Origin: an uncultured Candidatus Saccharibacteria bacterium
GTDB lineage: Bacteria; Patescibacteriota; Minisyncoccia; JACPXH01
Length of the DNA: 64,000 nt
NCBI GenBank assembly: GCA_964409225.1
Contig: CAYPCM010000001.1
Coordinates: 32,173-96,172, forward strand
Direction of reading: 5' to 3'
Part shown: positions 527 through 64,000 of the stretch, piece by piece
How the letters are laid out: the number at the start of each line of letters is the position of its first letter
Numbering within the stretch: the stretch's first letter is position 1
The notes under the pieces: model-generated
Told to the model about the DNA's origin: nothing
The model's input: the letters and a program-made list of their open reading frames with translations, nothing else
Databases searched by the model: none
Position numbers and translations under genes: made by a program

Positions 527-643
527 TTGACCCCATTAGAAGTCCATAGTTTTACAATCTATTGCGGAGGTCTAAGGGCGAAGCCGCCTAACGGCTTGCG
601 TTCACTTTTTGGAAGACACGATTTAGACCTCTAACGGGGTTGA
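527..643. repeat. Palindromic MITE-like element, family B (CCCCGTTAGAA ends), copy 1
   Basis: Terminal inverted repeats TTGACCCCATTAGAAGTC / GACCTCTAACGGGGTTGA; ~85% identical over ~117 bp to 18208..18326; internal GAAGCCGCCTAACGGCTT hairpin; sits in secY–adk spacer. Confidence 0.7.
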
Positions 644-9348: not shown

Positions 9349-9468
9349 CAGACCGTCCGAAAACTCCAAAATTTAGTCTTCGAGCTTGTCGAGAAGCCTA
9401 AATTTTGCCTTAAAACCGACGTATTGTTCTCGACAAGCTCGAACAATAACGAGTTTTCGGACGGTCTG
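9349..9468. repeat. Nested-palindrome MITE-like element, family A, copy 1
   Basis: 16–18-bp terminal inverted repeats CAGACCGTCCGAAAACTC…GAGTTTTCGGACGGTCTG; internal inverted CTTCGAGCTTGTCGAGAAG / CTTCTCGACAAGCTCGAAC; near-identical copies at 20199..20318 and 39749..39898. Confidence 0.75.
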
Positions 9469-14006: not shown

Positions 14007-14111
14007 TCAACCCCGTTAGAAAACAGAACTTTGTCTCATCGAAAGTAAGAACTCTTTAGTAGACTGACAAGTCGAAGAAAGCATGACCAGCTAGTTTTCT
14101 AACGGGGTCAA
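14007..14111. repeat. Palindromic element related to family B (CCCCGTTAGAAAAC ends)
   Basis: CAACCCCGTTAGAAAAC …105 bp… GTTTTCTAACGGGGTCAA inverted termini; lies in lipase/membrane-protein divergent spacer. Confidence 0.55.
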
Positions 14112-18207: not shown

Positions 18208-18326
18208 TTGACCCCGTTAGAAGTCCATAGTTCGGCAATCTATTGTGGGAGCCTAAAGGCGAAGCCGCCTAACGGCTTTCATTTATCTTCTTTGGGGGAC
18301 ACGATTTAGACTTCTAACGGGGTTGA
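18208..18326. repeat. Palindromic MITE-like element, family B, copy 2
   Basis: TTGACCCCGTTAGAAGTC…GACTTCTAACGGGGTTGA perfect 18-bp TIRs; homologous to 527..643. Confidence 0.75.
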
Positions 18327-20198: not shown

Positions 20199-20318
20199 CA
20201 GACCGTCCGAAAATGCCAAAATTTAGTCTTCGAGCTTGTCGAGAAGCCTAAATTTTGGCATAAATACGTCAGTGGTTCTCGACTTCGCTCGAACCATATC
20301 GAGTTTTCGGATGGTCTG
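20199..20318. repeat. Nested-palindrome MITE-like element, family A, copy 2
   Basis: CAGACCGTCCGAAAATGCC…GAGTTTTCGGATGGTCTG; begins 1 nt after GNAT stop and supplies last ~16 codons + stop of the convergent gene. Confidence 0.75.
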
Positions 20319-34054: not shown

Positions 34055-34963
34055 CAAGTGGATTGGATAGTCGCGCTCATTGAAATTTCAGTGGGTGAGG
34101 AAAGTCCGAACACCCCAGCCGATGCGCGGCATCGGAAATTCGAAGCTCGAATTTCGAATTTCGAAACAAATTCAAAATTCCAAATACAAATGTTCCAAAC
34201 GTTTGGAATTTGGGATATTGGGTATTGTGATTTGTTTCGAATTTCGAATTTCGGATTTCGTGCTTCCGCTGCTGCGCAGCGGCTGGAAGTAGGCAGTCGC
34301 TAACGGCGACCGGGAGCAGCTTGTTTCATCGGCGCGGTTCACGAATTGTTGCACGTAGCGCATTCGTGACTATGTGCGACATTGACTGCGTTTAAGGATA
34401 CGAGCGAAGCCCAGGGAAAGTGCCACAGAGACATATACCGCCTGCCGATGCTTCGCATCGGGAAACTCGAAATTCGAATTTCGAAACAAATTCAAAATTC
34501 CAAATACCAATGTTCCAAACGTTTGGAATTTGGGATATTGGGTATTGTGATTTGTTTCGGATTTCGTGCTTCGGATTTGGGATTTCCGCTGCGAAGCAGC
34601 GGTTGGTAAGGGTGAAAAGAGTGGGTTCGCCTTCGTTCCGCTTTCGCGGAACTTCGGCGGAATAAACCCGCCTTCATGCGCCAGCGCGCCGGAAGGTGTG
34701 GTGAACGTAAGAGCCCACAGTTCTCGCAGGTGACTGTGAGAAGAGGAAAACCCTGCCTGGTGCAAGGTCAGCGTTTCCTCGGCAGATTTCGTCTGCCGCG
34801 GGATTCGAAAAGTTAGACCGCTAGAGGCCGCGAGCAATCGCGGTCCCAGATAGATGGCTATCAGGGCGTGCGGCCTGTAAACCCCTCCCCAGTTTGCAAA
34901 ACAAACTGGGGAGGGGGAGGAAGGGCCGCACTCCTTACAGAATTCGGCTTATAGATCCACTTG
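34055..34963 (+). ncRNA. rnpB: RNase P RNA (bacterial type A core) carrying two ~165-nt inserted palindromic modules
   Basis: P1 pairing CAAGTGGAT/ATCCACTTG; P4 strands GAGGAAAGTCCGAAC and ACAGAATTCGGCTTATAG; conserved GGGAAAGTGCCACAGAGA, GGTAAGGGTGAAAAG, AACGTAAGAGCCCACAG, GGTGCAAGGTCAG, CCAGATAGATGGCTATCAGGG blocks matching E. coli M1 RNA; ~909 nt vs ~380 expected. Confidence 0.75.
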
Positions 34964-39283: not shown

Positions 39284-39748
39284 GCGCAGAAATAGCTCAC
39301 GCGCGGACCAGACGTGCTATAATCAGTAGCAATGAGGAATATATTTCCTCAACTCTTCGATGTCCGTCCCAGAGGGCGAGATGGGGAGGTGGACTTCGAA
39401 AAAATCAAACGAGTTGAGGCGGTGTTGGATTTGACGAGTAAGGAAAACGATCTGGCAGAGCCGGTGCGTTTAAATCAGGCGCGGGCGTTGCCGGCGGACG
39501 CCGCGTCCGCCGAACTCACCGCCGAAAAGCTCCTGGCAGAGCTTACGGCGATTTACGAGCGCGACGACACCTTAGAGGCCGAGCTGGCGCGTGAGCGGTC
39601 TTACCCCGTTAGAACACCACCAACTTCTGTTGGTGGTGACTATACAATTGTTGATGAGACAGCGCCACCATGCTCTGAAAGCCACGCGCCACCGATTAAA
39701 GTCGCGTTAGTACCAGAGTCGGCAGAACCTCTTGCAGTCAATAACTTT

Positions 39749-39898
39749 CAGACCGTCCGAAAACGCCAAAATTTAGTCTTCGAGCCTGTCGATGGTTCGA
39801 CAAGCTCACCACAGGGAAGATACATTGGGGGTTTCCCTGCCCCGAGCCACGTCGAGGGGTCGACAAGCTCGAACAATAACGAGTTTTCGGACGGTCTG
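39749..39898. repeat. Nested-palindrome MITE-like element, family A, copy 3 (150 bp, +30 bp internal)
   Basis: CAGACCGTCCGAAAACGCC…GAGTTTTCGGACGGTCTG; same TIRs/internal repeats as 9349 and 20199 copies. Confidence 0.75.
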
Positions 39899-40021
39899 TT
39901 TATCACGCGGGAAACCGAGGTGCCGAGCATTCCAGAACCGACGTGGCTGCCTGCGCCGGTTACTTTGCCGGCTGTGCCAATGCCCAGAGCCACGGCGCGG
40001 CTCAGCAGTGAGGCGCAGCCG

Positions 40022-41947
40022 ATGGCGTGGCCCGCGCGTTCTGAGCGCCGGCGGGAACTTAAATATTTTGTTGCGGCGGTGTTGGGCTTGGCTGCTGTGC
40101 TTATTGGTTTGGGGTTTGCTGGCCGGGTTATGGCGGTTAAAGCCGTGGTTGAGGCGCGGGTTTTGGTTGGCTTTAAGCGTCTGGCGGCAGCGGAGGAGAG
40201 TGTTGAGAATCGCGACCTCGCCGCCGCGCGAGACGACTTCCAAAAAGCGAGTGCTGAATTTCAGGGGGCGCGCGCGGCGCTTGGCTGGTCCGGGCGCACC
40301 GCGCTATTCGCCGCCCGGATTTGGCCATTGCCTTCAGCTGCGAAGAACGCCTCCCGGGTGCTTGAGGTGGGGGGGTCTTTAGCCGCAGCCGGCGTTGATC
40401 TTGCGACAGTGGCTGAGCGTTTTGTCGCCGGTGGCGCGCTTAAGTCGCTTTTGGGCGAAAACCAAGAAGACATTTTGGTTGAGTCCCGTGAAGCGCTCGA
40501 GCGGGCCACGCGAGCGCTCGACACAGCGCTTGCCTCCAGCGAGCGTATTTCGCCGGAACATCTGCCGGCTGAGGCGCGCGAGCGTTTCGCGGACTTGCGC
40601 CGGGTTATGCCGGTTGTCACTGCCGGCGTGCGCGCTGCCAAACAGGAGTTTGATCTGTGGGCGCCGATGCTTGGGTCAGACATGCCTCGCCGGTACTTGC
40701 TGGTTTTTCAGAATTCGAGCGAATTGCGCCCCACTGGCGGCTTTATCGGCTCATACGCTACCGTGGCGATTGATCAGGGGCGACTTAAAGAGTTTTTAGT
40801 CAACGGCATCTTCGATCCGGACGGCCAACTGGCGGTGAAAGTGGTGCCGCCCCGGCCGCTGCAGCTAATTTCGACCGCTTGGGCCACGCGCGACGCCAAC
40901 TGGTTTTTTGATTATCCGACATCCGCCAAAAAAATCGCCTGGTTTTTTGGCAAAACAGGAGAGCCCTCGGTCGATGGCGTAATTGCTTTTACTCCCGAAG
41001 CGCTCGTGCGTCTTTTGTCTTTGACCGGCCCAATTGCCATGCCGGCGTACGACGAAGTGGTCAGCGCGGAAAATTTTATTGAAGTGGCCCAGCGCGAGGT
41101 GGAGCTCGAGTACGATCCGGTGGTCAACCGCCCGAAGCAGTTTCTGGCGGATTTGGTGATTGAGTTGCTCGAACGGCTCAGGGCGCTGGACCCGCATGAG
41201 CTTGGTAAGATTATTTCTGTCACGGCCGACAGCTTGGCTCAAAAGGACATTCTCATATACCTTGCTGATCCCGAGCGCCAAGCCGAGGTGGCGCGTCGAG
41301 GTTTTGCCGGTGCGGTCACGGACACCAGCGGCGACTATTTGGCGGTTGTGCACACCAATATCAACGGCTACAAATCGGACTACGTCACTGACGACGAACT
41401 TGCGCATGAAACCGCAATTTGGCCGGACGGATCAACAATAAACACCGTGACGGTGAAACGCACCCATCGCGGCGGAAAGACGCCGCACTCTTTTTGGAAT
41501 CAGGTAAATGCCGAATGGCTGCGGGTGTATGCGCCTTTGGGCAGCGAACTCATTTCGGTCTCCGGCGTTACGCGTTTGGAGTCGCGTGAATCCATTGACT
41601 ACAGCCGCGCCGGTTTCCAGAATGACGCGGATGTTGTGGCCGAGGAGGCCAAGCAGCGCAAGGATCCGTTTTCCGGCAGCACTATTGGCGAAGAAGCGGG
41701 CAAGACCGTTTTTGGCAACTGGGTTTTCGTGAAGCCCGGAGAGACGGTTACGGTTTCGTACCGCTACCGTTTGCCGTTTACGCTTCAAAACGGCAGCGTC
41801 CACACTTTGGTTTGGCAAAAGCAACCGGGCACGAAGGCCCGCTTCAGCCACCGCCTGCAGGCGTCTGGTTGGCGCGTGGAAGGTGAGGCAGATGCAGGCG
41901 GAGTTCTGGATCGGGATTTTTTTACCGAAGTTAAGTTGTTTAGGTAG
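40022..41947 (+). CDS. DUF4012-like membrane-anchored protein (start set downstream of repeats; ORF could extend to 39332)
   Basis: N-terminal TM (FVAAVLGLAAVLIGLGF) then large conserved domain (…LVFQNSSELRPTGGFIGSYA…) as in DUF4012 proteins. Confidence 0.5.
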   Translation: MAWPARSERRRELKYFVAAVLGLAAVLIGLGFAGRVMAVKAVVEARVLVGFKRLAAAEESVENRDLAAARDDFQKASAEFQGARAALGWSGRTALFAARIWPLPSAAKNASRVLEVGGSLAAAGVDLATVAERFVAGGALKSLLGENQEDILVESREALERATRALDTALASSERISPEHLPAEARERFADLRRVMPVVTAGVRAAKQEFDLWAPMLGSDMPRRYLLVFQNSSELRPTGGFIGSYATVAIDQGRLKEFLVNGIFDPDGQLAVKVVPPRPLQLISTAWATRDANWFFDYPTSAKKIAWFFGKTGEPSVDGVIAFTPEALVRLLSLTGPIAMPAYDEVVSAENFIEVAQREVELEYDPVVNRPKQFLADLVIELLERLRALDPHELGKIISVTADSLAQKDILIYLADPERQAEVARRGFAGAVTDTSGDYLAVVHTNINGYKSDYVTDDELAHETAIWPDGSTINTVTVKRTHRGGKTPHSFWNQVNAEWLRVYAPLGSELISVSGVTRLESRESIDYSRAGFQNDADVVAEEAKQRKDPFSGSTIGEEAGKTVFGNWVFVKPGETVTVSYRYRLPFTLQNGSVHTLVWQKQPGTKARFSHRLQASGWRVEGEADAGGVLDRDFFTEVKLFR

Positions 41948-45937: not shown

Positions 45938-46372
45938 ATGGTTGGCGAGTCAGTACCAAAACATGGTTCTTGGCGGCGACTCGGCGCGTATGCGGCCGCG
46001 TTCGTTCTTTTGGTTGCGCTTGGTTGGCTTGGGGTGGCGGTATGGCGGGAGGCGCGCCGGAGTATGGTGGTTGAAGAGCGTGTGCGTGAGGTGCGCCGCG
46101 AAGTTGAGAAACTCACGGCGAATCGCGACGAGCTCGCGCGCATGCTTACTGCGTTGCAAGACCCGTCTGCGCTTGAGCGCGAAGCCAAGACCCAGCTCAA
46201 CCTGCGCCGGCCAGACGAACGCGTGGTCATTGTGGTGCCGGACGACGGCACGATCTCTGTGGTAGTGCCTACCACCTCTGAAATTACCGCAGCACCTGTC
46301 GCGCCAGAGGGCGCGACAGGCAATCTTCTTTCGTGGTGGGAATACTTTTTCGGCGCGCGCCGGCCTCGTTAG
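45938..46372 (+). CDS. ftsB: Septum formation initiator FtsB/DivIC-like
   Basis: N-terminal TM then coiled coil (…EVEKLTANRDELARMLTALQDPSALEREAK…). Confidence 0.55.
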   Translation: MVGESVPKHGSWRRLGAYAAAFVLLVALGWLGVAVWREARRSMVVEERVREVRREVEKLTANRDELARMLTALQDPSALEREAKTQLNLRRPDERVVIVVPDDGTISVVVPTTSEITAAPVAPEGATGNLLSWWEYFFGARRPR

Positions 46373-46442
46373 AAAACTCGTTGGTGCCCGTTTGTCTGTG
46401 TGTTTTCTAATGGTGTACGCTTAGACAATAGGAGCGAGTGTT

Positions 46443-61968: not shown

Positions 61969-62580
61969 CTATGGATACGCGTACGATATGGAACGATCAA
62001 GCTCGTATCGAGCGATCTGGCTGCAGGAAAGAAGCGTGCCGCTCAATCCGGCCCAGCCACCTTCGAGCGTCACCACGCCGTTGGCAGAAACGATGCCGCT
62101 CGCTATGGTAAAGCCAATTCCTGTGCCAGCGGCGTTGAACGCGTTAAACGTGAATCCGATGCTTTTGAGCTGTCCGGTTCGGTTACGCACTCGTAGCTGT
62201 AATAGGCAGCCCGAGAAGTAACCTGGCGTAAGCGATTCGGCTTCGATGACGACCCCGTTGAGCTCTACACCTACGTGTCCGCCGGTCGAGCCGCCGCCAC
62301 CGCCGACGGGCGTCGCCGAGATCGGCATCAGCACGTTCGCGAGCGGGTTCCATTCGAAGCGTACGGCGTAGGTGCCTGGCGGGTAGCCCGGCACATTCGG
62401 GCTCAGGATCGTGACGGGACTGATCGTGATTCGGAGGCCGTATAGCGTGTTCCACGGCTCGACCTGGATCGTGGCGCCTGCGCTCATCTCGATGTTGATC
62501 GCGAACGCCGGCGCCGCTGCTGCGCCCACGAGGCACGCGAGCACGGTTCCAAGCAGTAGATTTCTCCTGGCCATTGCCAT
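61969..62580 (-). CDS. Secreted hypothetical protein
   Basis: Signal peptide MAMARRNLLLGTVLACLVGAAAAPAFA; Gly/Thr-rich beta-type sequence. Confidence 0.4.
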   Translation of the reverse strand: MAMARRNLLLGTVLACLVGAAAAPAFAINIEMSAGATIQVEPWNTLYGLRITISPVTILSPNVPGYPPGTYAVRFEWNPLANVLMPISATPVGGGGGSTGGHVGVELNGVVIEAESLTPGYFSGCLLQLRVRNRTGQLKSIGFTFNAFNAAGTGIGFTIASGIVSANGVVTLEGGWAGLSGTLLSCSQIARYELDRSISYAYP

Positions 62581-62696
62581 CCCTCCTCTGTGTTGGTTTC
62601 CTCCTGTTTCGATCAAAAGGACTCCATTCCGCTATATACTCTGCTGGAGAGGTGCGGTCAAGCGGGGTTGCAAAGCAGGGGAGCCCAACGTACGGT

Positions 62697-63530
62697 ATGT
62701 TCATGGCGCAGTTTTCGATTTTGACGCTCAACCTCCGGCACGGTCAGGGGCCACGGGTCGCTGCTGGCGAGGCGCCGTGGTCCTTTGGCCAGCGTCGCGC
62801 AACCATGCGCGCCCATGCGGCGGCGATCGGTTCGTTCATCGGGCAGATGACGCCGCAGCCGGATATCGTGTGTCTGCAGGAGACGAATGCTGCCGCGTTT
62901 TTTTGGCCGGATATTCTTAGTATTATTCGCGAAAGGTCTGGCTATCAATACGTAGCGGCTTCTCCCCAAAAAGTTTTGCCGCATAATAATGGAATTTTAA
63001 GTCGGTTTCCATTCAATCGCGTGGTCTCGCGCCAGTTTCGCAAACTGCCGATGGTTATGGCGGGGTGGCGCGCGATATGCTATTCAATCAACCGTGGGTT
63101 TGTCGCAGCAGAAATCGAGGGGGTCGGGACTGTCGTTTCGACGCACCTCGATCCATATGTTCCCGCGCTGCGGTTTGGCCAAGCGCGCGAGCTGCGGCAA
63201 GCGCTGCCGGCGCGCAATATCATCATCACCGGAGATTTCAATCCGTTGACGTGGGATGAAGAGTCGCTCAAGGTGGCGGGGGAAGGGCTTACGACGGCGC
63301 CGCCGATTGATGCAGAACACTTCGCGTCGTTCGCAACTTGGCCAGCCCCGTTAGAAACCCAGTTTCTAACGGGGCCAGCTGGCGTAATGTCCACCGAAGT
63401 AGTACCAGAATGCCGGCTCGATTACGTGCTCGTTTCGCCGGGCTTGCGCTTCGTCTCTGCCGAGCGCGTGTTCACCGGCCACACGGATCATTACGGTGTC
63501 GTAGTTACCGTTGAAAGGCGCTCGCCATGA
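62697..63530 (+). CDS. Endonuclease/exonuclease/phosphatase (EEP) family protein
   Basis: N-terminal …ILTLNL…, CLQETN, GDFN, C-terminal TDHYGVVV (SDHxPV-like). Confidence 0.6.
   Translation: MFMAQFSILTLNLRHGQGPRVAAGEAPWSFGQRRATMRAHAAAIGSFIGQMTPQPDIVCLQETNAAAFFWPDILSIIRERSGYQYVAASPQKVLPHNNGILSRFPFNRVVSRQFRKLPMVMAGWRAICYSINRGFVAAEIEGVGTVVSTHLDPYVPALRFGQARELRQALPARNIIITGDFNPLTWDEESLKVAGEGLTTAPPIDAEHFASFATWPAPLETQFLTGPAGVMSTEVVPECRLDYVLVSPGLRFVSAERVFTGHTDHYGVVVTVERRSP
63345..63375. repeat. 13-bp-stem CCCCGTTAGAAA hairpin (family B-type end motif) embedded in EEP coding sequence
   Basis: GCCCCGTTAGAAA-cccag-TTTCTAACGGGGC perfect inverted repeat inside ORF. Confidence 0.5.
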
Positions 63531-64000
63531 CGGACGAACTCGTCACACTCCTCGGGTTGTTCCAATCGTCCCACTACGACCGCGCGGTGTTCCGGTCGTG
63601 GTTAGCGCGGCATCCGACCCCGGCCGACTGGGCGCTGTTCCGGGATCGCGTCAAGCTCGTCTGGACCCGCAAGGCCCGGATGCTGTCGTGGGTGGCGCGG
63701 ATTGTTTCGCTCGGCCGTACCAGTCGTCTCCCGCAGGCGGTTCTTCTTGCCCAGCAGCTCCTGCGCCCCGTTGAAGCGGCGGCGACATGGTGGCTTGCTC
63801 AACTCGCACGTCGCACCCTTCGTCGGGCCCGGCCGGTCGTGATCGGCATTGTGGGGAGCTACGGGAAGACGACGACGAAAGAGATTCTCGCTCACGTGCT
63901 CTCGGGGCATTTTCGGGTGCACCGGACGCCGGAGAACGTGAATACGCTGTTGGGTATTGCGGCTTGGCTGCGGCGTCTCGCCATCGAGCCCGAGGGCGTA
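63526..64000 (+). CDS. Mur ligase (MurF/MurE-like), 5' part; continues beyond window
   Basis: ATGA overlap with EEP stop; Mur ligase P-loop GIVGSYGKTTTKE. Confidence 0.65.

What the first reader, a model, noticed from the sequence alone, without database searches (positions are those of the whole stretch)
63345..63375. Perfect 13-bp-stem CCCCGTTAGAAA hairpin lying in-frame inside the EEP-family gene
The palindrome GCCCCGTTAGAAA-cccag-TTTCTAACGGGGC is translated as …WPAPLETQFLTGPAG… between conserved EEP blocks; the C-terminal TDHYGVVV motif follows it. Either a family-B element inserted in-frame (REP-in-CDS style) and is tolerated as a loop, or the gene is disrupted and annotated through by chance.
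Basis: seen in the sequence. Interest (0 to 1): 0.5.

Follow-up and report, generated by a model that had tools for sequence, protein, structure and literature searches.

The report
Tiny transposon remnant inside enzyme gene
The hairpin is a 29-base remnant of a small mobile DNA element that landed in frame inside a hydrolase gene and adds an 11-residue surface loop; the same element family sits in frame in essential genes of many uncultivated bacterial phyla.

Summary
Window 63345-63375 is a perfect 14-bp stem with a 3-nt loop, inside an intact EEP-family ORF (62703-63530).

Codon-level comparison with orthologues shows exactly 33 extra bases. They are a 29-nt element, CCCCGTTAGAAAC-CCA-GTTTCTAACGGGG (63346-63374), plus a duplicated 4-bp target CCAG. 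Four of five full-length orthologues and eight remoter homologues lack the 11 residues APLETQFLTGP. In the AlphaFold model the core is confident and the insert lies in a low-confidence loop between the conserved T212-W213 and R238-L-D240.

The same CCCCGTTAGAA inverted ends bound 97-111-nt intergenic copies in this window. At least 270 further copies occur in Patescibacteria, Omnitrophota, Desulfobacterota, Planctomycetota, Nitrospirota and others. Of these, 62% carry perfect 4-bp direct repeats, and every one of those repeats fits YNNR.

Copies read through by long ORFs are almost all frame-preserving: 29/125 where (length+4) is a multiple of 3, against 1/151 otherwise. Hosts include DnaE, IF-2, MurB and a Cdc48-like ATPase.

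I read it as a MITE-like non-autonomous transposon that behaves like the Rickettsia palindromic elements. No transposase was found. It is unresolved whether the 29-nt form moved as such or is a deletion product.

The parts
63346..63374 (.). 29-nt mini element: left end CCCCGTTAGAAAC (63346-63358), centre CCA (63359-63361), right end GTTTCTAACGGGG (63362-63374)
   Evidence: Sequence. Perfect inverted repeat (I16). Absent from orthologous genes. The same termini occur on other copies.
63342..63345 (.). Left copy of the 4-bp target-site duplication, CCAG
   Evidence: Orthologues read TGG CCA GCG/GCT once; the window reads CCAG-element-CCAG. It fits the family-wide G|YNNR|C target consensus.
63375..63378 (.). 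Right copy of the 4-bp target-site duplication, CCAG
   Evidence: Family-wide, the direct repeat is exactly 4 bp: 170/273 perfect at k=4 and 1/273 at k=5.
62703..63530 (+). Host gene: endonuclease/exonuclease/phosphatase (EEP) family protein, 275 aa; the insert is residues 215-225 (APLETQFLTGP)
   Evidence: PF03372, E = 2.6e-16. 100% identical to P0001, named 'Candidatus Parcubacteria bacterium' by its source. EEP fold by Foldseek: 4ruw, TDP2, nSMase, L1-EN. AlphaFold pLDDT 81.7, with low confidence only at 123-127 and 218-235.
63527..64000 (+). Start of the downstream Mur-ligase gene; its ATG overlaps the EEP stop codon (ATGA)
   Evidence: Sequence. Called gene with PF08245/PF02875 in the identical locus L007.
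14011..14107 (.). Full-length family copy, 97 nt, 14-bp ends CCCCGTTAGAAAAC, flanked by TCAA|..|TCAA; intergenic
18212..18322 (.). Full-length family copy, 111 nt, ends CCCCGTTAGAAGTC, flanked by TTGA|..|TTGA; intergenic
531..639 (.). Full-length family copy, 109 nt, same subfamily as 18212, one mismatch in each end, flanked by TTGA|..|TTGA; intergenic
46364..46415 (.). Degenerate 52-nt copy (CCTCGTTAGAAAAC...GTTTTCTAATGGTG), no flanking repeat, upstream of a tRNA gene
39604..39614 (+). Solitary left end CCCCGTTAGAA inside the DUF4012 gene (translated YPVR...), with no recognisable right end
   Evidence: It lies in a segment missing from orthologues, but that region is rich in indels.

Best explanation
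The hairpin is a 29-nt, ends-only member of a family of small non-autonomous DNA transposons (MITE-like). The family has 11-13-bp terminal inverted repeats CCCCGTTAGAAR and a 4-bp target-site duplication. An element inserted at the site G|CCAG|C in codons 214-215 of the EEP gene. Element plus duplication is 29 + 4 = 33 bases, so the frame is kept. In this phase the element has no stop codon (CC CCG TTA GAA ... CTA ACG GGG reads PLE...LTG). The result is an 11-residue addition to the variable loop between the conserved T212-W213 and R238-L-D240, and the gene stays open.

Shown here:
- the insertion relative to orthologues;
- the duplicated target;
- membership of a dispersed family with defined ends and a defined target;
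- the family-wide rule that copies inside genes preserve the frame.

Inferred:
- the family is moved in trans by a DDE-type transposase that makes 4-bp staggered cuts (about 0.6; no such enzyme was found);
- the enzyme still works;
- the hairpin has no function of its own.

Unresolved: whether the 29-nt form transposed as such, or is an internal-deletion or excision product of a copy of about 100 nt.
For: 1. The insert is absent from 4 of 5 full-length orthologues (53-75% identity) and from 8 remoter EEP homologues.

2. The orthologous empty site TGGCCAGCG becomes TGG-CCAG-[29 nt]-CCAG-C.

3. Three further copies in the window (531, 14011, 18212), and one next to the orthologue in L005, have the same ends and perfect 4-bp flanking repeats.

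By my own estimate, chance would give about one match to the 22 fixed bases in 596 Gb.

5. Of 273 non-redundant copies, 170 have a perfect direct repeat of exactly 4 bp, against a permutation mean of 26.9. Only 1 matches at 5 bp and 1-5 at shifted registers.

6. All 171 perfect repeats fit YNNR, with G enriched at position -5 and C at +5. The EEP site G-CCAG-C fits this consensus.

7. Copies read through by ORFs with at least 40 codons on each side number 29/125 where (length+4) mod 3 = 0, against 1/151 otherwise. Fisher p = 2.7e-10.

8. The host ORFs are real genes: a Cdc48-like ATPase, DnaE, IF-2, MurB, MetE, a complex-I subunit and others.

9. In the AlphaFold model (pLDDT 81.7, pTM 0.85) the only long low-confidence stretch is 218-235. 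The PDB relative 4ruw has its own 14-residue extra loop at the same point.

10. The palindrome is perfect although the orthologues differ by 25-45% in protein sequence, so the insertion is recent.
Against: No transposase, and no full-length element bounded by these ends, was found in about 1.6 Mb of flanking sequence. The movement mechanism is therefore inferred only from the ends and the duplication.

A 29-bp duplex is too short to bend so that one transposase complex holds both ends. Direct transposition of the mini form is therefore mechanistically awkward.

Only 11 of the 28 elements of 26-31 nt in the metagenome scan have perfect flanking repeats, against about two thirds of longer copies.

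CCAG is a rare target; 86% of duplications are T..A.

No empty-site allele of the same species was seen. All 7 contigs are identical, so there is no evidence of selection acting after the insertion and no proof that the enzyme is active.

P0003 has a different insert at the same codon. That shows the loop varies in length for reasons that may not involve this element.
Confidence: 0.85

Rival explanations
1. The gene is a pseudogene. The insertion destroyed the enzyme, and the ORF stays open only because the event is recent and happens to be a multiple of three.
For: All seven contigs are identical, so nothing shows purifying selection since the insertion. The insert sits in the loop next to the active-site face of EEP enzymes; that placement is my inference from the fold matches. 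The palindrome is perfect, so it is young.
Against: The frame, all invariant catalytic positions (N10, E60, D178/N180, D240, D262-H263) and the overlapping stop/start with the Mur-ligase gene are intact. Across the family, copies inside genes are almost exclusively frame-preserving and sit in essential genes such as DnaE, IF-2 and MurB, which cannot be pseudogenes. EEP relatives tolerate extra residues at this point.
Confidence: 0.06
2. The hairpin is a functional nucleic-acid signal, such as an internal terminator or attenuator, an RNase III site, or a protein-binding palindrome. It would be kept for that role, for example to tune expression of the downstream Mur-ligase gene.
For: It is a very stable RNA hairpin: -29.5 kcal/mol, z = -5.2. 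It lies 150 nt upstream of a translationally coupled gene.
Against: No U-tract follows it, and no terminator-like site is predicted in 62500-63700. No Rfam family matches any copy. Orthologous operons lack it. Copies occur in unrelated contexts and on both strands, with only the ends conserved.
Confidence: 0.05
3. It is a REP/REPIN-type palindrome moved as single-stranded DNA by a RAYT (HUH tyrosine) transposase, not a MITE moved by a DDE enzyme.
For: It is a very short palindromic unit. Its size suits a hairpin substrate better than a bent duplex. REPs inside genes are documented (PMC3733652). A single domesticated enzyme per genome would explain why no transposase lies near the copies.
Against: There is no GTAG or CGTC tag at either end. 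A sharp 4-bp target duplication is present in 62% of copies, and IS200/IS605-type transposition does not produce one (my own knowledge). Long copies have non-palindromic interiors bounded by two separate ends.
Confidence: 0.07
4. The segment is an ancestral, native part of the protein that most orthologues lost, and its palindromic coding is coincidental.
For: P0003 also has about 10 extra residues at the same codon.
Against: The P0003 insert shares no clear sequence with it, is not palindromic (z = -0.09) and is not repeated. P0003 is closer to the insert-free P0005 and P0002 than to P0001. A perfect 13-bp inverted repeat identical to a dispersed repeat family, with a 4-bp flanking duplication, cannot be coincidence.
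Confidence: 0.01

Closest known systems
Rickettsia palindromic elements (RPEs; Ogata et al. 2000 and 2002, as summarised in PMC10969869 and PMC3733652)
   Same: Both are palindromic repeat families whose copies are often inserted in frame in unrelated housekeeping genes. Both add a peptide that is compatible with the fold, and both also occur between genes.
   Different: RPEs are about 100-150 bp and confined to Rickettsia. This family has different ends (CCCCGTTAGAA), a defined 4-bp YNNR duplication and forms as short as 26-35 nt. It occurs across many phyla of uncultivated bacteria. No sequence relationship to RPEs was tested.
Bacterial MITEs in general (Correia/NEMIS, ERIC, RUP, Coxiella QMITE1, Nezha)
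   Same: Short terminal inverted repeats, target-site duplication, no coding capacity, many dispersed copies, occasional in-frame fusions with host ORFs (PMC10969869; PMC5896051 listed).
   Different: Known families are tied to one genus or family and often to an identified parent IS. Here no parent IS was found, the identical 11-nt end is shared across phyla, and the ends-only 29-nt form is far below the usual MITE size.
REP / REPIN elements with RAYT transposases (PMC3733652)
   Same: Short palindromes, sometimes inside genes, where they are tolerated in loops. A possible dependence on one enzyme per genome rather than on linked transposase genes.
   Different: REPs carry a GTAG or CGTC tag, and IS200/IS605-type transposition does not duplicate the target (my own knowledge). 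This family has CCCC/GGGG termini and a 4-bp duplication.
IS701 family (De Palmenaer et al. 2008, PMC2266710) and, from my own recollection of the ISfinder family table, IS1380
   Same: IS701 members give a target duplication of exactly 4 bp. IS1380 is remembered as having ends that start with CC and duplications of 4-5 bp. That is a recollection and was not checked here.
   Different: The published IS701 end consensus (---YACT-Y--YR) does not fit CCCCGTTAGAA. No transposase of either family was found next to any copy.

Membership tests
MITE (non-autonomous DNA transposon) | Terminal inverted repeats | tested here: met
   The 11-nt core CCCCGTTAGAA was fixed by the search pattern. Position 12 is A in 72% and G in 21% of copies. 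The perfect inverted repeat is most often 13 bp. The window copy has 13-bp arms.
MITE (non-autonomous DNA transposon) | Target-site duplication of fixed length | tested here: met
   170/273 copies are perfect at exactly 4 bp, against a permutation mean of 26.9. Only 1 matches at 5 bp. All perfect repeats fit YNNR. The window copy has CCAG|..|CCAG.
MITE (non-autonomous DNA transposon) | Many dispersed copies, small size, no ORF of its own | tested here: met
   4 intact and 2 partial copies in 64 kb. At least 270 copies in other genomes and metagenomes, 26-141 nt long.
MITE (non-autonomous DNA transposon) | Occupied versus empty sites among related genomes | tested here: met
   The orthologous EEP genes in L002, L003, L004 and L005 have the uninterrupted site. 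No empty allele was found within the same species.
MITE (non-autonomous DNA transposon) | A cognate autonomous IS with the same ends that encodes the transposase | tested here: inconclusive
   No end pairs 0.2-5 kb apart enclose a transposase-like ORF. No transposase cluster recurs in about 1.6 Mb of flanks. Whole genomes could not be scanned.
Rickettsia palindromic elements | Palindromic repeat inserted in frame in functional ORFs | tested here: met
   This row concerns how the element behaves, not whether it is a member of the family.
Rickettsia palindromic elements | Sequence membership in RPE-1 to RPE-10 and occurrence in Rickettsia | not tested
   The hosts here are Patescibacteria and other phyla. 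No RPE consensus sequences were available for comparison. The 29-nt length differs from the RPE length of about 150 bp.
REP/REPIN-RAYT | GTAG or CGTC tetranucleotide tag at one end of the palindrome | tested here: not met
   The ends are CCCC.../...GGGG, and neither tag is at either end. Definition from PMC3733652.
REP/REPIN-RAYT | No target duplication; a RAYT gene flanked by the repeats | tested here: not met
   A 4-bp duplication is present. RAYT genes were not specifically searched for. No protein cluster recurs next to the copies.
IS701-derived element | Exactly 4-bp duplication and the family end signature ---YACT-Y--YR | tested here: not met
   The duplication length fits, but the end signature does not. 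The authors state that the published consensus does not cover the whole family.
Intrinsic transcription terminator | GC-rich hairpin followed by a U-tract | tested here: not met
   The hairpin is followed by CCAGCUGGCG. No terminator-like sites were found in 62500-63700.
Integron attC site | RYYYAAC ... GTTRRRY core sites in that order, arranged in arrays between cassettes | tested here: not met
   Here the order is GTTAGAA...TTCTAAC on either strand, and the copies are scattered rather than arrayed. The definition is from my own knowledge.
EEP superfamily (host gene, PF03372) | Profile match, conserved catalytic residues, four-layer alpha/beta sandwich fold | tested here: met
   PF03372, 60.4 bits against a cutoff of 24.5. 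N10, E60, D178, N180, D240, D262 and H263 are invariant or nearly so. Foldseek E = 7e-14 to 4ruw, with TDP2, nSMase and L1-EN also matching.

The most novel reading that the evidence does not exclude
The CCCCGTTAGAA elements are an undescribed family of mobile DNA spanning many phyla. In this reading, the ends-only forms (26-35 nt, most often 29) are either themselves mobile or are stereotyped scars left by excision. Because 29 + 4 = 33, and two of the three reading phases on either strand are free of stop codons, each such event adds a ready-made 11-residue loop (xPLE..LTGx or xPVRN..SNGx). That would make the family a general and recurrent source of loop insertions in essential proteins (DnaE, IF-2, MurB, Cdc48-like ATPases) of Patescibacteria, Omnitrophota, Desulfobacterota and others. 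It may be driven by a single, possibly domesticated, enzyme per genome that has not been identified.
Probability: 0.3. Interest if true: 0.7.

Novelty: new member of a known kind. Interest (0 to 1): 0.55.

Why it matters
For this gene, the result settles the annotation. The ORF is real and the odd 11 residues are a recent mobile-element insertion in a variable loop. It is neither a frameshift nor a native motif.

More broadly, the family has three unusual properties:
- The same 11-nt ends occur in bacteria from many phyla, most of them uncultivated groundwater and sediment lineages with small genomes that are thought to carry few mobile elements.
- It has a sharply defined 4-bp YNNR target.
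- Its shortest forms, together with the duplication, make an exact number of codons.

Together these give a simple and testable route by which selfish DNA lengthens protein loops. They also give a recognisable peptide signature (PLE..LTG or PVRN..SNG) that annotators and structure predictors can flag. Identifying the enzyme that recognises CCCCGTTAGAA would be a clear next target.

Tried and rejected
Searches for the mobilising enzyme. I looked for solitary ends, for end pairs 0.16-5 kb apart with matching 4-bp flanks, and for protein clusters recurring next to copies. Only housekeeping genes turned up. In L017, two inverted copies 2.7 kb apart enclose a secreted protein, not a transposase.

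Known RNA families. Rfam matched nothing but tRNAs, either at gathering threshold over the whole window or at E up to 10 on two copies.

Literature. No relevant paper contains either end sequence. None of the top-ranked papers in a search combining miniature inverted-repeat elements with CPR/Patescibacteria terms contained the MITE term.

Annotated collections. A 95-nt copy has no match in 72,556 plasmids. Viral contigs hold no long copies and 5 short ones, so phages are not an obvious carrier.

Multi-copy short forms as proof that short forms move. This was rejected. The 40-nt subfamily is explained by deletion between two 13-nt direct repeats (CAGCGGGGCATTA) inside the 95-nt parent, and that deletion can recur independently.

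The P0003 insert as an old copy of the same element. It starts with CC, ends with GGG and follows the same CCAG. However, it is not palindromic and not repeated, and P0003 is not sister to P0001. I left this as unproven.

First structure model. With only 7 sequences it was too poor around the site (pLDDT 67.9). The 14-sequence model was used instead.

More orthologues. A profile search found only one extra fragment.

Variable-gap search pattern.

Full report
**The observation.** Window 63345-63375 reads GCCCCGTTAGAAACCCAGTTTCTAACGGGGC. As RNA it folds at -29.5 kcal/mol, and none of 200 dinucleotide shuffles folds as well (z = -5.2). It lies in ORF 62703-63530 on the plus strand. That ORF is a PF03372 endonuclease/exonuclease/phosphatase (EEP) protein (E = 2.6e-16). 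It is 100% identical to a protein that NCBI names as from 'Candidatus Parcubacteria bacterium'. The same DNA occurs, without a single difference over the roughly 2.2 kb compared, in seven contigs assembled independently from six sequencing runs and one MAG. It is therefore not an assembly artefact.

**It is an insertion.** The protein database holds only seven relatives at E up to 1e-3. A profile search added one fragment. In the alignment, P0002, P0004, P0005 (264 aa each) and P0006 (259 aa) lack exactly the 11 residues APLETQFLTGP between ATWP and AG. A search of 1.84 billion representatives gave 68 remoter EEP proteins. Eight of these were aligned, down to 27% identity, and none has extra residues there. 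At the DNA level the orthologues read ACT TGG CCA GCG/GCT GGT. The window reads TGG CCAG-CCCCGTTAGAAAC-CCA-GTTTCTAACGGGG-CCAG-CTGGC. The extra 33 bases are thus a 29-nt palindromic element (63346-63374) plus a second copy of the tetranucleotide CCAG.

**It belongs to a repeat family with defined ends.** The core CCCCGTTAGAA and its complement also bound three longer copies in the window. These are 531-639 (109 nt), 14011-14107 (97 nt) and 18212-18322 (111 nt). A fourth copy lies just downstream of the EEP orthologue in another Parcubacteria genome (L005 10798-10887). These copies are flanked by TTGA, TCAA, TTGA and TTTA direct repeats. The three window copies are intergenic. Copies 531 and 18212 share their interior; the others do not. 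A degenerate 52-nt copy lies at 46364, and a solitary left end at 39604. The 13-mer with up to 2 mismatches occurs 9 times against 1.97 expected.

**The family is very widespread.** By my own estimate, chance would give about one match. The named hosts include Patescibacteria of many classes, Omnitrophota, Planctomycetota, Desulfobacterota and 'delta proteobacteria'. They also include Nitrospirota, Cloacimonadota, Clostridia and a complete 3.3-Mb Thermodesulfobacteriota chromosome. A metagenome scan for separations of 0-30 nt also hit the limit. Viral contigs hold almost none.

**Only the ends are conserved.** Position 12 is A or G, and the perfect repeat is most often 13 bp. Interior GC content runs from 0.15 to 0.77. 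Interiors fold only slightly better than shuffled sequence (mean z = -1.1). No Rfam family matches. No paper in the library contains either end sequence in a relevant context.

**Target duplication.** Among 273 non-redundant copies, 170 have identical tetranucleotides on both sides. Permuting the flanks gives 26.9 on average and at most 39. At 5 bp only one copy matches, and at shifted registers only 1-5 do. All 171 perfect duplications fit YNNR. TTTA/TAAA is the most common, followed by TCAA/TTGA and TGAA/TTCA. Position -5 is enriched for G and position +5 for C. The EEP site G-CCAG-C fits this consensus, although C..G targets are the minority. In 17 of the 171, the two bases next to the element are not complementary. 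That favours a 4-bp duplication over a longer inverted repeat with a 2-bp duplication. A fixed-length duplication with a symmetric target preference and short inverted ends is the signature of DDE-type transposition. That link is my inference.

**Copies inside genes keep the frame.** I asked which of 276 copies are read through by a stop-free frame with at least 40 codons on each side. Where element length plus 4 is a multiple of three, the answer is 29 of 125. For the other two length classes together it is 1 of 151 (Fisher p = 2.7e-10). Frame-preserving lengths are also over-represented overall: 125 against 65 and 86 (p = 4e-5). The encoded peptides are xPLE...(F)LTGx or xPVRN...SNGx. The third phase contains TAG and TAA. 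Nine host ORFs were scanned against Pfam. They are a Cdc48/VAT-like ATPase, DnaE, a pyruvate:ferredoxin-oxidoreductase-like protein, a radical-SAM protein, MetE, a Memo-like protein, IF-2, a complex-I antiporter-like subunit and MurB. The ATPase aligns end to end with solved VAT structures at E = 2e-221. The EEP case is therefore one instance of a general pattern. The closest precedent is the Rickettsia palindromic elements, which insert in frame in many housekeeping genes (PMC10969869). REPs inside genes are also documented (PMC3733652).

**Where the insert sits in the protein.** With 14 aligned sequences, AlphaFold gives pLDDT 81.7 and pTM 0.85. The only low-confidence stretches are 123-127 and 218-235. 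The insert is residues 215-225. An earlier 7-sequence model was poorer, but it has the EEP fold by Foldseek: 4ruw at E = 7e-14, then TDP2, neutral sphingomyelinase and the LINE-1 endonuclease. The insert lies between the invariant T212 and the invariant R238/D240. The PDB relative 4ruw carries its own 14-residue extra loop at exactly this point. From my own knowledge of the superfamily, this is the variable beta-hairpin loop on the substrate-binding face. It is the one exchanged in the LINE-1 endonuclease variant 2v0r, listed. An insertion there should be tolerated by the fold but could change substrate contacts. This last step is inference.

**Alternatives considered.**
- *Pseudogene.* The frame, the catalytic residues and the ATGA overlap with the downstream Mur-ligase gene are all intact. 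However, all available copies are identical, so selection since the insertion cannot be shown.
- *Terminator or regulatory hairpin.* No U-tract follows the hairpin, no terminator-like site is predicted, and orthologous operons lack it.
- *REP/RAYT element.* There is no GTAG or CGTC tag, and a target duplication is present.
- *Native ancestral segment.* This is excluded by the empty sites.

**The P0003 insert.** P0003 has a different 10-residue insert, AGRLERASPG, at the same codon. Its DNA folds no better than shuffled sequence (z = -0.09). It is not repeated elsewhere. P0003 is closer to the insert-free P0005 and P0002 than to P0001. It may be an old, decayed hit at the same good target, or an unrelated loop expansion. 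I could not decide between these.

**What remains open.**
- *No transposase was found.* No end pairs enclose an ORF, and no protein cluster recurs in about 1.6 Mb of flanks. IS701 shares the exact 4-bp duplication, but its published end signature does not fit (PMC2266710). IS1380 is only a recollection.
- *The origin of the 29-nt form is unresolved.* Lengths of 29 nt are the largest class among short forms apart from one subfamily (20 of 124). They recur with the same 13-bp arms and different central triplets in unrelated contigs. This hints at a stereotyped process. On the other hand, the multi-copy 40-nt forms are explained by deletion between two 13-nt direct repeats in a 95-nt parent. In addition, only 11 of the 28 elements of 26-31 nt keep perfect duplications. 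A 29-bp duplex is also hard to fit into a conventional two-ended transposase complex.

**Verdict.** It is a new family of a known kind: a MITE-like element that behaves like the Rickettsia palindromic elements. Interest is moderate, and is raised by the breadth of the family and by the 29 + 4 = 33 arithmetic.

Noticed in passing
window 39749-39898 (also 9349-9468 and 20199-20318): A second MITE-like family with 16-bp ends CAGACCGTCCGAAAAC (copies of 120, 120 and 150 nt). The 150-nt copy lies in frame inside the DUF4012 gene (ORF 39332-41947), flanked by TTT|..|TTT, so 150+3 = 51 codons. Orthologues P0075-P0077 lack the roughly 50 residues QTVRKRQNLVFEP...NNNEFSDGL. Its ends resemble the CCCCGTTAGAAAAC ends at 10 of 14 positions (CCGTnnGAAAAC). 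Flanking repeats are inconsistent among the three copies: none, TGAT and TTT.
   Followed up: partly
window 39604-39640: A solitary left end CCCCGTTAGAA is followed by a perfect 10-bp-stem hairpin, CACCACCAAC-TTCT-GTTGGTGGTG. Both lie inside the DUF4012 gene and are translated YPVRTPPTSVGG. About 17 residues here are missing from orthologues, but the region is rich in indels, so an insertion is likely but not proven.
   Followed up: partly
L001 8137-8166 (orthologue P0003): A different 30-nt, 10-residue insert (AGRLERASPG) lies at exactly the same codon of the EEP orthologue. It is not palindromic and not repeated. It starts with CC and ends with GGG after the same CCAG, so it could be a decayed older hit at the same target.
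   Followed up: partly
L024, L031, L079, L102 and others versus L135, L153, L157 and others: A 95-nt subfamily, whose named hosts are mostly Desulfobacterota or 'delta proteobacteria', contains two 13-nt direct repeats, CAGCGGGGCATTA. The abundant 40-nt forms are exactly the product of deletion between them.
   Followed up: yes
L175 11-118; L115 6124-6231: Two 52-nt copies sit head to tail, separated only by the shared 4-bp flank (CTTG or TGAA). This suggests insertion right next to an existing copy, or tandem duplication.
   Followed up: no
L105 1338-1441; L048, L070, L103: In four genomes whose loci carry S10/L3 ribosomal-protein genes, a copy lies in or near that operon; in L105 it sits between the genes for L3 and L4. 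Positions differ between genomes, so this is probably chance in small genomes.
   Followed up: no
L017 2166-2259 and 4941-5034: Two copies in inverted orientation, with inverted 8-bp flanks, bracket a 2.7-kb segment that encodes a 686-aa secreted protein. The arrangement looks like a composite element or an inversion, and it holds no transposase.
   Followed up: partly
window 34115-34286: An 87-nt-arm imperfect palindrome (72% complementary), with AT-rich ATTCAAAATTCCAAA repeats nearby at 34170 and 34490. It is unrelated to the finding and was not examined (I1, I18, I19).
   Followed up: no
window versus contig JACPLK010000008.1 (L007): That public contig ends 7.5 kb upstream of the EEP gene, whereas the window extends 62.7 kb upstream. 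The window therefore comes from a longer assembly of the same organism. The DUF4012 protein is on record on a 109.8-kb contig.
   Followed up: no
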